Both the position numbers and the translations under genes were made by a program. Of a DNA stretch of 64,000 nucleotides, positions 3,252 through 52,750 are shown piece after piece. Every line of letters starts with the position of its first letter. Position 1 is the first letter of the stretch. Below the pieces are notes generated by a model. That model ran no database searches and was not told where the DNA came from. It was given only the letters and a program-made list of their open reading frames with translations. Location of the stretch: assembly GCF_054482525.1 (NCBI RefSeq), contig NZ_CM137006.1. One strand, 5' to 3'.

Positions 3252-3644
3252 ATGAAGAAACTTGTTTTAGTCGCAGGTGTAATGATTGCAACAGTAATGT
3301 TGGGAGGGTGTGCAGCAAAGATCGATCCAGCGTTGAAAGCAGAAGCAATGAAGCCACTAACATGTAATGATGAAAAGCAATGTGACTTTTATTGGAAACG
3401 AGCGCAATTCTGGTTGGCTAATAATTCCTCATGGAAAATTCAAACGGCGACAGACACGCTAATTTCCACTTATAATCCCTCTCCAAATAGTCCATTCCTC
3501 GCTTATCAAGTGAGTAAAATGCCAAATGAAGATGGATCCTCAAGAATTTTCATCAAGCCTTTTTGCGATAATATGTTTGGCTGTCAACCAAACCCCTATC
3601 AGGCAGTTGTTTCCTTTAAAAACTTCGTTAAAACAGGGCAGTAG
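3252..3644 (+). CDS. Predicted lipoprotein of unknown function
   Basis: 130 aa; signal peptide with lipobox (VMLGGCAA); four further Cys; RBS ggga 7 nt upstream. Confidence 0.55.
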   Translation: MKKLVLVAGVMIATVMLGGCAAKIDPALKAEAMKPLTCNDEKQCDFYWKRAQFWLANNSSWKIQTATDTLISTYNPSPNSPFLAYQVSKMPNEDGSSRIFIKPFCDNMFGCQPNPYQAVVSFKNFVKTGQ

Positions 3645-5282: not shown

Positions 5283-5642
5283 ATGCGTATAGAGTTTGTT
5301 TTGCCTTATCCGCCGACGGTGAATACTTACTGGCGACGTCGTGGCAACACATATTTTGTATCAAAAGTCGGTGAGCGTTATCGCCGTGATGTGGCACTAA
5401 TTGTTCGCCAGCAGCGGTTGAAATTAAACCTGTCCGGAAGGCTGGCAATAAAAATTATTGCAGAGCCACCGGATAAGCGCCGCCGCGACCTGGACAATAT
5501 CCTGAAGGCACCACTGGATGCGCTGACGCATGCCGGACTTCTCATAGACGACGAGCAGTTTGATGAAATCAATATTGTGCGCGGACTGCCTGTTCCTGGT
5601 GGTCGGCTGGGGATAAAAATCACAGAACTGGAGTGCGCATGA
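5283..5642 (+). CDS. rusA: Holliday junction resolvase RusA
   Basis: 119 aa; LPYPPTVNTYW, RRRDLDNILKAPLDAL and GGRLGIKITELE align with RusA as recalled. Confidence 0.8.
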   Translation: MRIEFVLPYPPTVNTYWRRRGNTYFVSKVGERYRRDVALIVRQQRLKLNLSGRLAIKIIAEPPDKRRRDLDNILKAPLDALTHAGLLIDDEQFDEINIVRGLPVPGGRLGIKITELECA

Positions 5643-6328
5643 ATAACCAGTATTTACAGTTTGTGCGTGAGCAGCTCATTATCGCCACCGCTGATTTGAG
5701 TGGGGCAACAAAAGGTCAGCTTGAAGCCTGGCAAGAGAATGCCATGTTCGATACAGGGCGTTACAGGCGAAAAAAAATCCGGTACCGCGATGAAGTGACT
5801 GGAAAAATGATAACGCGGGATAATCCACCAATCCCGGGAAAGCAATCGCTGGCGAAGGGGACGTCAATTCCTCTGGTCAGTCCGGTTGAGTTTTCGACAT
5901 CATCGTGGCGGCGGGCTGTTTTGTCTCTTGAAGAACATCATAAAGCCTGGTTGTTGTGGTGTTACAGCGGGAGTATTTGTTGGGAATATCAGATCGCGAT
6001 AACACAGTGGGCGTGGAATGAATTTAATACTCAATCCGGTACCAGAAAAATTGCAGGGAAAACGCAGGAACGCCTGAAAAAATTAATCTGGCTGGCGGCG
6101 CAGGCAGTAAAAGCAGAACTTTTTGGTGGGGAAGGTTATGAATACCAGGAGCTGGCATTACTGGCGGGAGTGACAACTAAAAACTGGTCCAAAACATTTA
6201 CTCGTCACTGGGTTGCAATGAAACACATTTTTCACCGACTTGATAGTGAGGCTTTATTGTTTGTAATGAGAACACGTTCAAAACAAAAGGCGGCATTTTC
6301 AAAGCAAAGTATTGCAAAAGTAGATTGA
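5633..6328 (+). CDS. Putative late-gene antiterminator (Q-like)
   Basis: 231 aa directly downstream of rusA and upstream of a terminator, tRNA cluster and lysis genes; assignment by position only. Confidence 0.45.
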   Translation: MRMNNQYLQFVREQLIIATADLSGATKGQLEAWQENAMFDTGRYRRKKIRYRDEVTGKMITRDNPPIPGKQSLAKGTSIPLVSPVEFSTSSWRRAVLSLEEHHKAWLLWCYSGSICWEYQIAITQWAWNEFNTQSGTRKIAGKTQERLKKLIWLAAQAVKAELFGGEGYEYQELALLAGVTTKNWSKTFTRHWVAMKHIFHRLDSEALLFVMRTRSKQKAAFSKQSIAKVD

Positions 6329-6393
6329 AAGGCATATATTTCATGCAAATCTGATATTTTGCCGATTTTGTACGTGATGGCAAAAGCAAACAA

Positions 6394-6418
6394 AACCCGC
6401 CCACAAGCGGGTTTTTTG
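6394..6418 (+). terminator. Rho-independent terminator downstream of Q-like gene (tR'-like)
   Basis: aacccgcccacaagcgggtt hairpin followed by tttttt. Confidence 0.55.
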
Positions 6419-6484: not shown

Positions 6485-6513
6485 TTGCAACATTGATTTC
6501 GTAACGTTATTAT
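6485..6513 (+). promoter_or_regulatory. Candidate sigma70 promoter for the tRNA cluster
   Basis: TTGCAA, 17-bp spacer, TATTAT, then GC-rich discriminator cctgcgcc just before tRNA 1. Confidence 0.4.
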
Positions 6514-6522
6514 CCTGCGCCC

Positions 6523-6598
6523 GGCCCTTTAGCTCAGTGGTGAGAGCGAGCGACTCATAATCGCCAGGTCGCTGGTTCAAATCCAGCAAGGGCCACCA
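6523..6598 (+). tRNA. tRNA with CAT anticodon (Ile2/Met-type)
   Basis: 76 nt cloverleaf ending CCA; anticodon loop CTCATAA; close to E. coli ileX as recalled. Confidence 0.7.
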
Positions 6599-6599
6599 G

Positions 6600-6676
6600 C
6601 CGCCACTAGCTCATCAGGAAAGAGCGTCAACCCTTTAAGTTGAGTGTGCGAGGTTCGAGTCCCCGGTGGCGGTCCA
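6600..6676 (+). tRNA. Atypical tRNA-like gene (anticodon loop CCTTTAA, UUU with C33); possibly non-canonical or pseudo-tRNA
   Basis: 77 nt; acceptor CCGCCAC/GTGGCGG plus T-CCA; D-arm GCTC/GAGC; T-loop TTCGAGT; one A-C mismatch in T-stem. Confidence 0.4.
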
Positions 6677-6678
6677 GT

Positions 6679-6754
<76 letters not shown>

Positions 6755-6757
6755 TAT

Positions 6758-6832
<75 letters not shown>

Positions 6833-7037
6833 GTTAGAGTCTTTCAGTCTGCGATGATGGGAAATCCCGGAGTGACTGAAAGACGTTTAAGTTATGAATG
6901 ATCGCTTTTTTTGCAAAATTGCTGTGCAGAAATACTAACCTTCGGGCAGGCGATCATTCATAAGCACTCTGCTTTTATTCCGATTAACTGTGGGTGGTTT
7001 GTTGGATAGAGTGCTTCCCTTACTGTATATATCGTTT

Positions 7038-7063
7038 CGCCCGCTTTTGCGGGTTTTTCTTTT
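7038..7063 (+). terminator. Rho-independent terminator between tRNA cluster and holin
   Basis: gcccgcttttgcggg hairpin followed by a T-run. Confidence 0.5.
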
Positions 7064-7123
7064 CAAATCCCTTTCATTTCTCAGTGTAAAACTACGCCAT
7101 CCGTTATTTGCGGAGGTGAGGCT

Positions 7124-7339
7124 ATGAAATCCATGGACAAAATTTCAACGGGCATTGCCTACGGCACCTCCGCAGGCAGTGCTGGCTACTGGTTTTTACA
7201 GTGGCTTGATCAGGTCAGTCCGTCACAGTGGGCTGCGATTGGTGTACTGGGGAGTCTGGTTCTGGGCTTCCTGACTTATCTGACAAATCTGTACTTCAAA
7301 ATCAGAGAAGACAAGCGTAAGGCTGCACGGGGAGAGTAA
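7124..7339 (+). CDS. S: Class II holin (phage 21 S-like pinholin)
   Basis: 71 aa; [26 protein letters not shown]... with dual-start MKSM; matches S21 as recalled. Confidence 0.8.
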
Positions 7340-9182: not shown

Positions 9183-9722
9183 TTAGAAACTGCGTGGAGC
9201 TGTGGAAAGAATGGATGCCAGTTCTTCCTTCGATAAATCCCAGCTTCGATTTACAGCGTCAATTTTCTTAAACTCATCAAGCATTGCGTTATAGAGATGT
9301 TCTGTACGTGAATGAGTATTGGCAATGGGCTGTTTCTGTTCGGGGAAGCGATCAATTTTCTGATATGCCTCAATGATACTGAAGTAATCGCATTCATTAT
9401 TACCGTCGAAACCTGGGAGCTGAATTGCCCCATCATGTATTTTTAGATGATGGTCACGGACTAATTCTTTTTGCTCGTCATCACTAAGTTTCCTGAAAGC
9501 ATTGGAAAGTCCGCGATACATATTCAAGACAGCAGTAACAAAATCACGATCTTCTTTACTTGGTTCATCAACATCCAAATGTGAATATTCGGCCTTCATA
9601 ACCCAACCATTACCAGATGACACAGCATATTTAACAAGCTGTGGATCAATATCAGTTTCGATACCTAGGTGGATGGCAATGTCACATAACAAAATGGTAT
9701 TGATTTTATCTTTAATATCCAT
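9183..9722 (-). CDS. YfbU-family (UPF0304-like) protein, antisense to phage late genes
   Basis: 179 aa; by-eye alignment to E. coli YfbU as recalled (..NMY..L, GFD, THS, LSKEELASI); only credible minus-strand gene in the prophage part. Confidence 0.5.
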   Translation of the reverse strand: MDIKDKINTILLCDIAIHLGIETDIDPQLVKYAVSSGNGWVMKAEYSHLDVDEPSKEDRDFVTAVLNMYRGLSNAFRKLSDDEQKELVRDHHLKIHDGAIQLPGFDGNNECDYFSIIEAYQKIDRFPEQKQPIANTHSRTEHLYNAMLDEFKKIDAVNRSWDLSKEELASILSTAPRSF

Positions 9723-15883: not shown

Positions 15884-15934
15884 TCATTCAGGGGGCGCAG
15901 AAGTGCGCCCCCTGTTCTGACAGGTGAAAGAATC

Positions 15935-33960: not shown

Positions 33961-34611
33961 TCAATGAGACATCATTTCCTCGACCACTTCTTCGCTACTC
34001 AACTGATATGGATAATACGTTGGCCAGTTTTCCATTTCATTTAATAAAGATTGCTGTGAATCATTACCCATAAAAATGTGAAAATGAGATGATTTTCGTG
34101 GTGCAATTATATGATCGCTAAATTGTATATATTTAGGGGCTTTGCTTTTAGGATCTTTACATTCGAATAAGTAACGAACGCCTTTCTTGCCTGATTTATA
34201 GGTGAGTATTTTGTATCCATCGTAATCATATTTACAGGATGTTGTTTCATTATTTCTATGGAATTCAACAATGCCGTCCTCAATGCCAATCATCTCGATA
34301 TCTGTCACATAACCTTTGCGATAATAATCTTTAATTTCAGCAAATGTTTTAGTTTTATCTGCATCCGCTTTCTTCTGAAAGACGGGGTCAAGTTTGCCAC
34401 TTTGCAGTAAAGGATAAACGGATTGCCAGACTCCATCCCAGTCACTGAGCGTTCGGTTTTGTACATTGGCATCATCAAAAACACCATTAGCAGCTTTTTG
34501 TTCGACCTCTGTTAAGGGTTTGCCGTGTGAGTGATGACCATGCGAAAAGGCAGGAGCGCTAACAATAAAGACACCTAAAGCAACAGCCAGTTTATGAAGA
34601 CGAATCGCCAA
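33961..34611 (-). CDS. zinT: Metal-binding protein ZinT
   Basis: 216 aa; signal peptide and His-rich HGHHSHG motif; synteny with msrQP. Confidence 0.85.
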
Positions 34612-34819: not shown

Positions 34820-35574
<755 letters not shown>

Positions 35575-41585: not shown

Positions 41586-42176
41586 AGTGTATTCCTTATT
41601 GTTGCTTAGTTAGGGTAGTCACTATATTTGCGACTGAGCTGGTCGTTATTTTTACCCAGTCTGGAAAATTGAGTCAATATATCGAAAGCGGTAGTCGGCG
41701 GGCGTAAGTATGTAATGATGATGCTGCACTGGTGTTGAATATTATTCACGCCAAATTTTCCTTATGGAGCAACGCCGTCGCAAGTGGCCTCAATGATTTT
41801 AGACCATTATCAGAGGTCCGGGGCGGCAGGGAGAGATTTAATGTTGTGGAATATTGTGGTGCTGATGAATATTTATATCGCGGATTGGTAGAGAAAAAGC
41901 TTTTTTCATGCACTATTTTTGCAAATATTTCTATATGGACGGCGGTTTTGTTGCGGATTAATTCATAAAGAAATGCATTTGGGTGTTGGCTGGAAGAGAC
42001 GCTGGTAGATTTTATTGAGCCAGGAGGGGCGGGGTAATGTGCTGTATCGATATGCTTTGGCAATTGCGTGTGCCGCAGATGGAGATGAAATGCCAATAAA
42101 AAAGCCTGAGTTCGATGAGGGACGAACTCAGGCTATTGTTAAGTTTTACAGTAACACGCCACGGCGCGTTGGCTGA

Positions 42177-43292
42177 TTAGAACTGGTAGACGATACCAAC
42201 TGCAAACTGGTCATCAGCTGCTGCGCCAGTAATGGCGGCGTCATCTTTATCCAGCATGTTGAATTTGTATGCAGTATAAACGTTCATGTTCTTATTGAAG
42301 TAGTACCAGGTACCAACTTCAATGTAGTTCACACGGTCAGCGTCAACATATCTATGTCCAGGTACACCTTTGATATCTTTACCTTTAGAATACACATAAC
42401 CTAAGGACGGACGCAGACCAAAGTCGAATTGATACTGAACAACCGCTTCAAAGTTCTGGGTTTCATTGATAAGTTGATCACGCATTATTGTATTGCCTTC
42501 TCGATCGGCAACACCTGTATCAATAGAACTCGGAGTCATATTACGAGTTTCACCGTACATTACAGCTGCGTAGACATTGTTCGCGTCATACTTTGCAGCC
42601 AATGACCACAGTTCAGCATTTGAACCGTTTCCATCGGCAACTTGATCGTTGGTGCGATCAGATTTGCTATATGCACCAACGATACCAAAACCATTGATGT
42701 TATAGTCTACAGACAACGCATAGCCGTCACCATTTTGTTTCTTAGTGCTACGGTTGCTGTTTTTGCCTTGGTACTGAATCGCAAAATCAAGACCATCAAC
42801 CAGACCAAAGAAATCAGAGTTACGGTAGGTTGCAACACCGTTGGTACGACCGTTCATGAAGTTGTCAGCGGACGCCCAGGAATCACCACCCCATTCAACT
42901 AACATATCGGTATAAGCTGCGGCATCATAAGCAACACCGTAGTTACGACCATAGTCGAAAGATCCTAACTCGTTATATTTCAAACCTGCGAAGGTTAAAC
43001 GGGTTTTTTCCTGATTAGAGCCTTCGGGCTTGCTGGCGTCGAGGTTGTATTCAAACTGACCAAAACCAGTCAGTTCGCTGGTGATTTGGGTTTCACCTTT
43101 AACACCGAAACGAGCATAGGAGGTATCTTCGTTTTCGCTGTTATTATCATCAGTATTTGACCAGATGCGTTCGCCAACCATCTTGCCGTAGAAATCAACT
43201 TTATTGCCATCTTTATTATAAATTTCAGCCGCATTTGCTGCGCCAGCAACTAATAACGCCGGGACCAGCATTGCCAGAACTTTTCTTTTCAT
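42177..43292 (-). CDS. yedS: OmpC-family general porin (yedS locus), apparently intact
   Basis: Signal peptide [21 protein letters not shown]; porin motifs; C-terminal ...VYQF; lies between hchA and yedR. Confidence 0.8.
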
Positions 43293-49154: not shown

Positions 49155-49324
49155 AAGGGTATCATTAACACCAGGCCGGATCACATCCGGCCTGGTGTGC
49201 CAATGCCTGCAATGAATGATAGTCGCGTCTTATCATGCCACCATTATAAAATTATCGCTGTTTTGCGGTACGTTATCGCCGGGTTATGCCAGAATCATAA
49301 AAAAGCAGGTTGGGAGTCGTCAGG

Positions 49325-52707: not shown

Positions 52708-52750
52708 TCTAATTCAGCCTGACTGGTGGGAAACCACCAGTCAGAATGTG

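What the first reader, a model, noticed from the sequence alone, without database searches (positions are those of the whole stretch)
6836..6960. Two long inverted repeats in the leader between the tRNA cluster and the holin
Seen: gtctttcagtc/gactgaaagac (about 6839-6884) and tatgaatgatcgc/gcgatcattcata (about 6894-6958) predict two stable stem-loops in non-coding RNA upstream of the 7038-7063 terminator and the holin gene. Inference: possible tRNA-processing signals, an antitermination (qut-like) element, or a small structured RNA.
Basis: inference. Interest (0 to 1): 0.3.

Follow-up and report, generated by a model that had tools for sequence, protein, structure and literature searches.

The report
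Structured RNA trailing prophage tRNA operon
The two inverted repeats are real and belong to a conserved, unannotated three-hairpin non-coding RNA that follows a self-promoted tRNA cluster between the Q antiterminator and the lysis genes of lambdoid prophages; it looks like a new RNA family of a familiar kind, with an unknown partner, and it is not a qut site.

Summary
The perfect 11-bp and 14-bp inverted repeats (6839-6884, 6892-6963) are real and rare: 8 such repeats in 64 kb against 0.4 in shuffles. With a third hairpin (6962-7016) they form a ~185-nt structured RNA on the + strand.

The module keeps its pairing through compensatory changes in phage HK639 and over 100 viral contigs. It occurs in 535 of 5,426 complete E. 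coli genomes and in Citrobacter, Yokenella and Phytobacter. It is unannotated and matches no Rfam family, Pas/STnc100 sRNA or put RNA.

It always lies between Q and the lysis genes. It usually abuts the 3' end of the last tRNA of a small tRNA operon with its own conserved sigma-70 promoter (here 6485-6513). An intrinsic terminator usually follows (here 7039-7063). Hairpin 1 carries a consensus K-turn.

pR'/tR', where qut would lie, are upstream (6312-6417), so a qut-like role is not supported.

Best reading: this is the structured 3' trailer of a self-transcribed tRNA "moron". It is probably released as a stable folded RNA, and forms the 5' end of processed late mRNA in lytic growth. Its partner and role are unknown. 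It is a new family of a known kind, of moderate interest.

The parts
6312..6340 (+). Context: candidate late promoter pR' (TTGCAA-17-TATATT), overlapping the end of the Q gene
   Evidence: Promoter scan. The Q ORF 5633-6328 matches PF06323 with E = 8.6e-92.
6344..6417 (+). Context: short pR'-proximal RNA ending in the tR' terminator (hairpin 6392-6415 plus a T run)
   Evidence: Weak isrK/isrJ Rfam matches of 22-25 bits, below gathering. The terminator hairpin is visible in the sequence; the scan lists it on the minus strand. HK639 has the same arrangement (and the annotation).
6485..6513 (+). Sigma-70 promoter of the tRNA unit (TTGCAA-17-TATTAT), followed by a G+C-rich discriminator (CCTGCGCCC); the -10 hexamer ends 9 nt before tRNA-Met
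   Evidence: Promoter scan. The two hexamers, their spacing and their position are kept in many relatives whose spacer and flanks differ: TTGCAA/TTTGCA/TTGCGT, 17-18 nt, TATTAT/TATCAT.
6523..6832 (+). Four tRNA genes: Met(CAU), Lys(UUU), Thr(UGU), Gly(UCC)
   Evidence: ARAGORN; Rfam tRNA scores of 44-74 bits.
6834..6890 (+). Hairpin 1 (H1). Outer stem 6839-6849/6874-6884. Internal loop with K-turn consensus: C6852-G6872, bulge G6853-A-U6855, G6856.A6871, A6857.G6870, U6858.G6869. Short stem GGG/CCC with a variable 4-nt loop.
   Evidence: Compensatory changes at columns 26/69 and 27/68 (UA to CG in 16 sequences, CG to UA in 18). G6856, A6857 and A6871 are invariant and G6870 is kept in 45 of 46 sequences.
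6892..6963 (+). Hairpin 2 (H2). Basal stem of 14 bp (6892-6905/6950-6963) carrying two small apical hairpins, i.e. a three-way junction; the segment UUUUUGCAAAAUUGCUGUG is conserved.
   Evidence: Compensatory changes at A1 columns 12/84, 20/76, 24/72 and 28/71. H2 occurs alone in Salmonella phage Fels-1.
6962..7016 (+). Outer stem 6962-6970/7008-7016, an A/U-rich 5' bulge 6971-6978, an inner helix 6979-6989/6996-7006 (UCCGAUUAACU/GGUUUGUUGGA, rich in G-U pairs) and loop 6990-6995.
   Evidence: Compensatory changes at A1 columns 91/136, 92/135 and 93/134. The 3' strand of the inner helix is the most conserved stretch of H3. H3 occurs alone, downstream of tR', in other phages.
7039..7063 (+). 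Intrinsic terminator (GCCCGCTTTTGCGGGT plus a T tract) that ends the tRNA-plus-trailer unit upstream of the holin
   Evidence: Terminator scan and fold. Terminators of several unrelated sequence types lie within 40 nt of H3 in 44 of 74 distinct downstream contexts, with weaker variants among the 26 scored as having none.
7124..7339 (+). Context: P21-type holin S, the first lysis gene
   Evidence: PF04971, E = 1.4e-35.

Best explanation
The two inverted repeats are hairpins H1 and H2 of a three-hairpin structured RNA module of about 185 nt (6834-7016, + strand). The module is the 3' trailer of a small autonomous stable-RNA transcription unit, a 'moron', inserted in the late-operon leader of a lambdoid prophage. 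The unit runs: sigma-70 promoter 6485-6513, then tRNA-Met, Lys, Thr and Gly (6523-6832), then H1-H2-H3, then the intrinsic terminator 7039-7063.

Proposed working. In a lysogen the unit is transcribed from its own promoter. The tRNAs are cut out by the host tRNA-processing nucleases. The trailer remains as a compact RNA of about 230 nt. Its 5' end is made by tRNA 3' processing and sits next to a strong stem, and its 3' end is the terminator hairpin. The terminator keeps this transcription out of the holin gene. After induction, Q-modified polymerase from pR' reads through the whole unit, and the same hairpins become the 5' end of the processed lysis/late mRNA.

The best-conserved parts are folded motifs: a consensus K-turn in H1, the three-way junction of H2 and the inner helix of H3. 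The single-stranded linkers are the least conserved. I therefore infer that the RNA is read as a folded object, either as a protein-binding or architectural RNA or as an end-protecting structure, and not through a linear seed.

Shown here: the structure and its covariation, the strand, the position, and the conservation of the promoter and terminator. Inferred: processing, stability, expression in lysogens, and any action in trans.
For: Structure. 92.4% of 2,982 pair cells are standard pairs, against 36-45% when the partners are slid. 17 pairs carry compensatory changes, against 2-10 when slid. The covariation score is 0.18 against about 0.06, and no shuffle of 500 reaches it.

Strand. There are 419 G-U cells against 95 A-C cells, so 92.4% of cells pair on the + strand and 81.6% on the - strand. 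The covariance model scores 150 bits on the + strand of the window and finds a single copy.

Position. In 100 distinct contexts, 62 have tRNA + H1 + H2, 11 have a tRNA abutting H2 within 10 nt, and 11 have a tRNA further upstream. The preceding tRNA is mostly Gly(UCC), but also Thr, Glu, Met or Arg. Upstream lie several Q-like protein clusters, two confirmed as Q (the HK639 annotation). Downstream lie holins of at least five families.

Own promoter. It is conserved in position, with its -10 hexamer ending 9 nt before tRNA-Met, across diverged variants.

Terminators. Unrelated terminator sequences follow H3 within 40 nt in most contexts.

Motifs. The K-turn core is invariant and fits the published definition (PMC5061560; the folding rule 3n = G, PMC4382518). 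Column identity among 13 representatives is 0.93-1.0 for the K-turn and 0.89 for the 3' strand of the H3 inner helix, against 0.49-0.57 for the linkers.

Spread. The module occurs in 535 of 5,426 complete E. coli genomes, with a median of one copy and always on the chromosome. It is also in HK639 and in Citrobacter, Yokenella and Phytobacter.
Against: There are no expression, end-mapping or stability data of any kind.

The modules also occur apart from tRNAs and from any visible promoter. H2 stands alone after an ORF in Fels-1. H3 stands alone about 20 nt after tR', or after other sequences, in about 10 phages. At least H3 may therefore work only within late transcripts.

26 of 74 downstream contexts lack a strong terminator, although about 10 of these carry a weakened copy of one.

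Most of the variation separates two clades, the window type and the HK639 type, so the independent compensatory events are fewer than the cell counts suggest. The relatives were collected with an exact 19-mer from the H2 apex, which inflates the apparent conservation of H2. The K-turn is assigned from sequence only. To my knowledge, E. coli has no L7Ae-type K-turn-binding protein.
Confidence: 0.45

Rival explanations
1. The module is purely a cis-acting element of the late transcript. The hairpins would be processing and stability signals, for example RNase III or RNase E sites and 5'-terminal stem-loops. They would separate the non-coding leader (pR' RNA, tRNAs) from the lysis/late mRNA and protect its new 5' end. 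The RNA made in lysogens would be a by-product.
For: In every arrangement a strong stem starts within a few nucleotides of a stable upstream structure. H1 or H2 starts -4 to +7 nt from a tRNA 3' end. H3 alone starts about 20 nt after the tR' U tract, behind an A/U-rich linker. The module sits upstream of at least five unrelated holin families and of other late-leader genes, as a generic leader element would. H3 alone has no promoter of its own in L160, L231 or L234, so only read-through or Q-modified transcription can make it. That 5'-terminal stem-loops stabilise E. coli mRNAs is established knowledge (own knowledge: the ompA 5' UTR work of Emory and Belasco).
Against: A generic stabiliser or RNase III site needs structure, not sequence. 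Yet the K-turn core, the H2 apex and the 3' strand of the H3 inner helix are nearly invariant. The terminators placed directly after H3 and the conserved dedicated promoter point to a discrete transcript.
Confidence: 0.25
2. The module is a seed-based, Hfq-dependent trans-acting sRNA or sponge. It would be released from the tRNA operon trailer as 3'ETS-leuZ is, or would work like the Pas, STnc100, AgvB or AsxR sRNAs that occupy the same Q-holin slot.
For: Its position, directly 3' of the last tRNA and upstream of the operon terminator, matches that of a 3'ETS RNA. A/U-rich linkers followed by a terminator with a U tail are present. The Q-holin interval is a documented home of prophage sRNAs. 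STnc100 copies lie immediately downstream in HK639 and L023.
Against: The single-stranded stretches, where a seed would lie, are the least conserved parts (0.49-0.57 column identity). There is no similarity to PasA or PasD (no R1 hit in L222 or L223) and no match to any Rfam sRNA. The 10-nt identity with GcvB is at chance level: 222 and 567 of 1,000 shuffles reach the same score.
Confidence: 0.15
3. The module is a processive antitermination element. On this reading it would be a put-like RNA that modifies RNA polymerase, or a qut-like site, and would let transcription pass the 7039-7063 terminator into the lysis genes.
For: It lies upstream of one or more terminators in the late leader. HK639, which carries it, is known to use an RNA antiterminator in its early operon, annotated as a putL-like RNA. 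Like put, it consists of stem-loops with bulges (PMC9378689).
Against: put RNAs are about 70 nt with two stem-loops and sit just downstream of the early promoters. This module is about 185 nt with three hairpins and sits in the late leader. It shares no sequence or model similarity with the HK639 putL-like RNA. These phages encode Q, which already handles late terminators. An antiterminator acting on transcripts from the constitutive tRNA promoter would express the holin in lysogens, which would be lethal. qut must overlap pR', which lies 500 nt upstream.
Confidence: 0.04
4. The module has no RNA function. The repeats would be DNA-level features: remnants of recombination at tRNA genes, a miniature palindromic mobile element, a protein-binding palindrome, or a small peptide gene.
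For: The modules shuffle independently, and tRNA halves occur next to the module in HK639. The region is mosaic. Short ORFs can be drawn through H2.
Against: G-U pairs outnumber A-C pairs 419 to 95, which is expected for RNA on one strand and not for DNA symmetry. In the window the two halves of the H3 inner helix match at only 7 of 11 positions as a DNA palindrome but pair at 10 of 11 as RNA (read from the sequence). There is a median of one copy per genome, always in prophages, so it is not a dispersed repeat. T-run length varies and single-base indels occur among close relatives, which breaks any reading frame. Similarity of H1 to tRNA-Gly is not significant: 117 of 2,000 shuffles reach it.
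Confidence: 0.06

Closest known systems
3'ETS-leuZ, the tRNA-operon trailer RNA of the E. coli glyW-cysT-leuZ operon (own knowledge; listed as the sRNA '3'ESTleuZ' in the EPEC data set)
   Same: It lies directly 3' of the last tRNA of an operon and upstream of the operon's intrinsic terminator, so it would be freed by tRNA 3' processing.
   Different: 3'ETS-leuZ is short and acts through a single-stranded sequence that pairs with sRNAs on Hfq. This trailer is about 230 nt and almost fully folded, its linkers are its least conserved parts, and it is carried by a prophage.
rtT RNA from the tyrT operon trailer, and the stable 'species 1 and 2' RNAs of the phage T4 tRNA cluster (own knowledge)
   Same: These are stable non-coding RNAs of unknown or poorly known role, co-transcribed with tRNAs and released by the tRNA-processing machinery. 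The T4 case is also phage-encoded.
   Different: There is no sequence or model similarity: the Rfam search gave nothing at E up to 10. The phage type and genomic position also differ.
Prophage sRNAs of the Q-holin interval: PasD/STnc100 (RF02076), PasA/PasC, AgvB, AsxR
   Same: They occupy the same genomic slot between the Q antiterminator and the holin, end in an intrinsic terminator, and show mosaic distribution among lambdoid prophages. An STnc100 copy sits right after this module in HK639 and L023.
   Different: The sequences are unrelated and no Rfam family matches. The Pas sRNAs are Hfq-dependent RNAs of 80-240 nt, three of them complementary to a motif shared by their targets. This module is tRNA-linked, larger, and conserved in its folded motifs.
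HK022/HK639 put antiterminator RNAs
   Same: These are phage-encoded cis-transcribed RNAs built of bulged stem-loops upstream of terminators. HK639 carries both a put-like RNA and this module.
   Different: [quoted passage not shown] This module has three hairpins, lies in the late leader behind tRNAs, and shows no similarity.
Standard K-turn motif (Kt-7 type)
   Same: The H1 internal loop has a Watson-Crick C helix, a 3-nt bulge, tandem G.A/A.G pairs and a non-canonical helix that starts with U.G. The G.A pairs are invariant and the bulge varies (definition in PMC5061560).
   Different: The assignment rests on sequence alone. No kinking, tertiary contact or binding protein has been shown.

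Membership tests
Any curated Rfam 15 family | A covariance-model match at or near the family's gathering score | tested here: not met
   Nothing matches 6833-7016 on either strand at E up to 10. Nothing matches the homologous stretches of HK639, L016, L023, L024, L160, L215 or Fels-1 at E up to 0.1.
HK022-type put antiterminator RNA | An RNA of about 70 nt made of two stem-loops | tested here: not met
   Three hairpins span about 185 nt. The definition is from PMC9378689.
HK022-type put antiterminator RNA | [quoted passage not shown] | tested here: not met
   It lies in the late leader between Q and the holin. The HK639 putL-like RNA is annotated elsewhere, at 34187-34312.
HK022-type put antiterminator RNA | Sequence or structure similarity to known put RNAs | tested here: not met
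   Model R1 gives no hit in L227, which holds the HK639 putL-like RNA. The folds differ.
HK022-type put antiterminator RNA | Terminator read-through that depends on the beta' zinc-binding domain | not testable with these tools
   This needs transcription assays.
Lambda-type qut site | A DNA element overlapping the late promoter pR' and its early transcribed region (own knowledge) | tested here: not met
   The pR'-like promoter is at 6312-6340 and tR' at 6392-6415. The hairpins start about 500 nt further on, beyond a second promoter and four tRNAs.
3'ETS-type tRNA-trailer sRNA | Lies between the last tRNA of an operon and the operon's terminator | tested here: met
   tRNA-Gly ends at 6832 and the terminator is at 7039-7063. 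The same layout is found in 73 of 100 distinct contexts.
3'ETS-type tRNA-trailer sRNA | A conserved single-stranded pairing sequence (seed) | tested here: not met
   The linkers are the least conserved parts, at 0.49-0.57 column identity.
3'ETS-type tRNA-trailer sRNA | Release by RNase E and binding to Hfq | not testable with these tools
   This needs end mapping and co-immunoprecipitation.
Pas / STnc100 prophage sRNAs | Sequence or covariance-model similarity to PasA, PasC, PasD or STnc100 | tested here: not met
   The E2348/69 PasA and PasD loci were read, and R1 gives no hit in L222 or L223. The STnc100 model hits a neighbouring stretch, not this one.
Pas / STnc100 prophage sRNAs | Located between Q and the holin-lysozyme genes and ended by an intrinsic terminator | tested here: met
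   family description.
Standard K-turn | [quoted passage not shown] | tested here: met
   C6852-G6872, bulge GAU 6853-6855, G6856.A6871, A6857.G6870. The G.A nucleotides are invariant, or kept in 45 of 46 sequences. The definition is from PMC5061560.
Standard K-turn | Adopts the kinked fold, with metal ions or with a protein | not testable with these tools
   The 3b.3n position is U.G (3n = G), which the rule in PMC4382518 classes as folding in metal ions alone. This is a prediction only.
Phage 'moron' (autonomous transcription unit inside the late operon) | Its own promoter upstream and its own terminator downstream | tested here: met
   Promoter 6485-6513, conserved in relatives. Terminator 7039-7063, with counterparts in relatives. 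The activity of either was not tested.

The most novel reading that the evidence does not exclude
This is a previously undescribed family of K-turn-containing structured RNAs that lambdoid prophages express together with their tRNA operons in lysogens. The RNA would work as a folded decoy or scaffold that binds and titrates a host or phage protein, for example an RNA-processing, ribosomal or anti-phage factor, and not by base pairing. About one in ten E. coli genomes would then carry an unrecognised protein-binding riboregulator.
Probability: 0.2. Interest if true: 0.65.

Novelty: new member of a known kind. Interest (0 to 1): 0.42.

Why it matters
The interval between Q and the holin of lambdoid prophages is already known as a nursery of small RNAs that rewire host regulation (Pas, STnc100, AgvB, AsxR). 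This module would add a larger, highly folded family linked to tRNAs. It is present in about 10% of complete E. coli genomes and in other Enterobacteriaceae, yet it is absent from Rfam and from genome annotation. If it is a stable RNA made in lysogens, it is a candidate for a protein-binding riboregulator, or for a new example of a functional tRNA-operon trailer. If it acts in cis, it would show how phages that place tRNAs in their late leader keep the downstream lysis mRNA intact after the tRNAs are cut out. In either case the conserved K-turn and the invariant G/U-rich strand of H3 give precise handles for mutagenesis.

Tried and rejected
1. Rfam. Searches of the window stretch and of seven relatives gave no family for the module.

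2. Literature. A full-text search for six characteristic sequence strings found no paper. A search for tRNA-trailer or prophage sponge RNAs found nothing on this element. The King et al. HK639 paper could not be retrieved.

3. Pas sRNAs. They share the slot, but the PasA and PasD sequences read from E2348/69 are unrelated.

4. put. There is no similarity to the HK639 putL-like RNA.

5. GcvB mimicry. A 10-nt identity (GGTCTGCGAT) looked suggestive but is at chance level: 222 and 567 of 1,000 shuffles reach the same score.

6. H1 as a decayed half of tRNA-Gly. The alignment score is 20 against 14.6 +/- 2.8 in shuffles, and 117 of 2,000 shuffles reach it, so this is not significant.

7. Riboswitch or attenuator logic. 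The terminators behind H3 are of several unrelated sequence types, and I saw no conserved alternative pairing with H3 (by inspection).

8. Small peptide genes in H2. Frames differ between subtypes, and T-run length varies among close relatives.

9. Dispersed palindromic repeat. There is a median of one copy per genome, and only in prophages.

10. The 14-mer anchor GGGTGGTTTGTTGG returned mostly chance hits in viral contigs. Only 8 new true hits were recovered by nhmmer.

11. The genome contigs pattern was too strict and returned only three species.

Full report
**Observation**

The repeat finder gives arms 6839-6849/6874-6884 (11 nt, perfect) and 6892-6905/6950-6963 (14 nt, perfect). Only 8 perfect inverted repeats with arms of at least 11 bp and loops of 3-50 nt exist in the 64-kb window, against 0.43 on average in shuffles, and two of them are adjacent here. 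As RNA, the + strand 6833-7070 folds into three hairpins plus a terminator hairpin at -80.9 kcal/mol (z = -5.4). The minus strand folds less well, at -61.3 kcal/mol.

**Context in the window**

The upstream ORF 5633-6328 is a Q antiterminator (PF06323, E = 9e-92). Before it lie RusA and DUF968 genes. After the hairpins come a P21-type holin (7124-7339), a DUF1327 gene and a lysozyme.

Immediately after Q there is a promoter-like site (6312-6340) and a terminator. The stretch 6344-6417 gives weak IsrK/IsrJ matches. This is the usual pR'-tR' arrangement of lambdoid phages.

A second promoter-like site, TTGCAA-17-TATTAT at 6485-6513, is followed by a G+C-rich discriminator. It lies 9 nt upstream of the first of four tRNAs, Met, Lys, Thr and Gly, at 6523-6832. 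A terminator-like hairpin with a T tract lies at 7039-7063.

The hairpins therefore occupy the stretch between the last tRNA and the terminator of a small transcription unit that sits inside the late leader.

**Relatives**

The 291-nt stretch occurs in 521-535 of 5,426 complete E. coli genomes. Most copies are at least 95% identical. There is a median of one copy per genome, always chromosomal, with no annotated feature under any match listed. It also occurs in four sequenced temperate E. coli phages.

A 77%-identical copy lies in phage HK639, again between the Q-like gene and the holins. It follows a tRNA and a tRNA-Gly 3' half, and is followed within 10 nt by a terminator that the depositors annotated.

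An exact-word scan of viral contigs returned 120 loci with 59 distinct core sequences. A strict pattern found the module in Citrobacter sedlakii, Yokenella regensburgei and Phytobacter ursingii. A Salmonella record in the plasmid collection holds a 77% copy. Salmonella phage Fels-1 holds hairpin 2 alone.

**Structure is conserved, on the + strand**

RNAalifold on 53 cores recovers hairpins 2 and 3. The pairs with compensatory changes are:
- H2: 12/84 (AU to UA, 26 against 26), 20/76 (UA to GC, 24 against 24), 24/72 and 28/71.
- H3: 91/136, 92/135 and 93/134.

On 46 sequences that contain all three hairpins, 92.4% of 2,982 pair cells are standard pairs, against 36-45% when the 3' partners are slid by 1-3 columns. 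Compensatory changes occur in 17 pairs, against 2-10 when slid. The covariation score is 0.18 against about 0.06, and none of 500 shuffles reaches the observed score.

G-U pairs outnumber A-C 419 to 95, so the + strand pairs at 92.4% and the minus strand at 81.6%. A covariance model built from the alignment finds one copy in the window, at 6885-7025 on the + strand with 150 bits. It scores minus strands far lower.

There are two caveats. Much of the variation separates two clades. The relatives were collected with a 19-mer from the H2 apex, which inflates the apparent conservation of that stretch.

**Anatomy**

[quoted passage not shown] The loop reads C6852-G6872, bulge GAU 6853-6855, G6856.A6871, A6857.G6870, then U6858.G6869 and a GGG/CCC stem with a variable loop. 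The G.A nucleotides are invariant or kept in 45 of 46 sequences, and the bulge varies: GAU, GAA, UAA, AAU. With 3n = G, the rule of PMC4382518 predicts folding in metal ions alone. This is a sequence-level assignment, not a demonstration.

H2 is a 14-bp basal stem that bears two small hairpins, i.e. a three-way junction.

H3 has an outer stem that covaries freely, an A/U-rich 5' bulge, and an inner 11-bp helix. The 3' strand of that helix (GGUUUGUUGGA) is almost invariant. Its 5' strand drifts through changes that keep pairing by G-U or A-U.

Among 13 representatives below 93% identity, column identity is 0.93-1.0 in the K-turn core and 0.89 in the 3' strand of the H3 inner helix. It is only 0.49-0.57 in the linkers and 0.56 in the H1 apical loop.

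**Context across relatives**

Of 100 distinct contexts:
- 62 have a tRNA followed by H1 and H2.
- 11 have a tRNA whose 3' end abuts H2 directly, with H1 absent.
- 11 have a tRNA further upstream.
- 13 have no tRNA within 700 nt.
- 3 are H3 alone.

The abutting tRNA is mostly Gly(UCC), but also Thr, Glu, Met or Arg.

The promoter upstream of the first tRNA keeps its two hexamers, its spacing and its distance to the tRNA, while the spacer and flanks differ.

Within 40 nt after H3, 44 of 74 distinct downstream contexts have a clear intrinsic terminator. About ten more have a weakened copy. The terminators belong to several unrelated sequence types.

Upstream genes fall into several clusters of Q-like proteins. 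Two are confirmed as Q: the 231-aa type by Pfam and the 165-aa type by the HK639 annotation. Downstream genes are holins of at least five families, or small genes of unknown function.

H3 alone occurs in about ten phages, often about 20 nt after a pR'-tR' pair and 40-100 nt before a gene.

**What it is not**

No Rfam family matches the module in the window or in seven relatives. No paper holds its characteristic sequence strings.

The Pas sRNAs of EPEC and STnc100 occupy the same Q-holin slot but are unrelated in sequence. An STnc100 copy follows the module in HK639 and in L023.

put RNAs are about 70 nt, have two stem-loops and lie next to the early promoters. The putL-like RNA of HK639 is annotated in the early left operon and shows no similarity.

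From my own knowledge of lambda, a qut site overlaps pR', which is 500 nt upstream here.

Similarity to GcvB, and of H1 to tRNA-Gly, is at chance level. Reading frames through H2 are not conserved.

**How it most likely works**

Shown here are a conserved, strand-specific RNA structure, its fixed place at the 3' end of a tRNA unit in the late leader, a conserved dedicated promoter, and a following terminator.

The rest is inferred from established knowledge of tRNA-operon processing: RNase P at tRNA 5' ends, and RNase E in A/U-rich trailers. The unit would be transcribed in lysogens and the tRNAs excised. The trailer (6833-7063, about 230 nt) would survive as a compact RNA, because both of its ends sit in strong stems, while the terminator shields the holin gene.

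After induction, Q-modified polymerase from pR' must read through the unit. After tRNA excision, the same hairpins then form the 5' end of the lysis/late mRNA.

The conservation pattern, with folded motifs high and linkers low, argues for recognition as a folded object: a protein-binding or architectural RNA, or an end-protecting structure. It argues against a linear seed.

I put 0.45 on this composite reading, 0.25 on a purely cis-acting late-leader role, 0.15 on a seed-based Hfq sRNA or sponge, about 0.04 on antitermination, and about 0.06 on no RNA function. The separate occurrence of H2 and H3 away from tRNAs is the main unexplained point. It keeps the cis reading alive.

**Novelty and verdict**

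This is a new, unannotated family of a known kind: prophage non-coding RNAs of the late leader, and tRNA-operon trailer RNAs. It is fairly widespread and has an interesting motif content, but there is no functional evidence. Its 'small structured RNA' option is supported, its qut option is not, and its tRNA-processing option remains open. Interest is moderate (0.42).

Noticed in passing
window 6312-6417: A pR'-like promoter directly after Q is followed by a short RNA that ends in the tR' terminator. The RNA gives weak IsrK/IsrJ Rfam matches (22-25 bits, below gathering). HK639 has the same arrangement (isrJ, 34.6 bits). This suggests that the IsrK/IsrJ families are pR'-tR' 'short late' transcripts of lambdoid prophages.
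   Followed up: partly
window 6600-6676, and the second tRNA slot in loci L003-L122: The second tRNA of the cluster is hypervariable among otherwise similar prophages: Lys(UUU) in 30, Arg(UCU) in 7, Phe(AAA) in 3, one with a stop-reading anticodon (UUA), and nine with abnormal anticodon loops that ARAGORN calls 'tRNA-???'. The window's tRNA-Lys has the lowest Rfam tRNA score of the four (44 bits).
   Followed up: no
window 6485-6513 and the homologous sites in relatives: The tRNA-unit promoter has a G+C-rich discriminator (CCTGCGCCC or CTCGCTCCC) between the -10 hexamer and tRNA-Met. From my own knowledge, this is as in stringently controlled stable-RNA promoters. It is conserved across diverged variants.
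   Followed up: partly
L001 (HK639) 3254-3459; L023 1000-1233; L229 (Fels-1) 273-486, 687-809, 1810-2028: Copies of the sRNA STnc100 (RF02076), not annotated in the records inspected (HK639, Fels-1), lie in the late leaders: one right after the module in HK639 and L023, and three in Fels-1. The late leader of these phages is a train of small RNA genes, each with its own terminator.
   Followed up: partly
L001 (HK639) about 2940-2992: A 3' half of tRNA-Gly(UCC), without its 5' half, lies directly upstream of the module. It appears as a weak hit to the tmRNA model, which belongs to the tRNA clan. It points to recombination within tRNA genes of the leader.
   Followed up: no
L062, about 9640-9700: An IS3-family transposase gene (MSGKRYPEEFKIEAVKQVV...) is inserted inside hairpin 3 of one relative.
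   Followed up: no
window 15889-15914, 34870-34896, 42103-42134, 42645-42683, 49168-49198, 52719-52744: These are the six other perfect inverted repeats in the window with arms of 11-14 bp and short loops. They are probably terminators, but none was examined.
   Followed up: no
L050, L064, L073, L196 (upstream of hairpin 2); L222 1562-1720: In some relatives the module follows the end of an apparent small ORF instead of a tRNA. By eye it may correspond to the DUF3927 gene that precedes PasD in E2348/69; this was not tested. If so, the module and PasD would be alternative cassettes of one slot.
   Followed up: no
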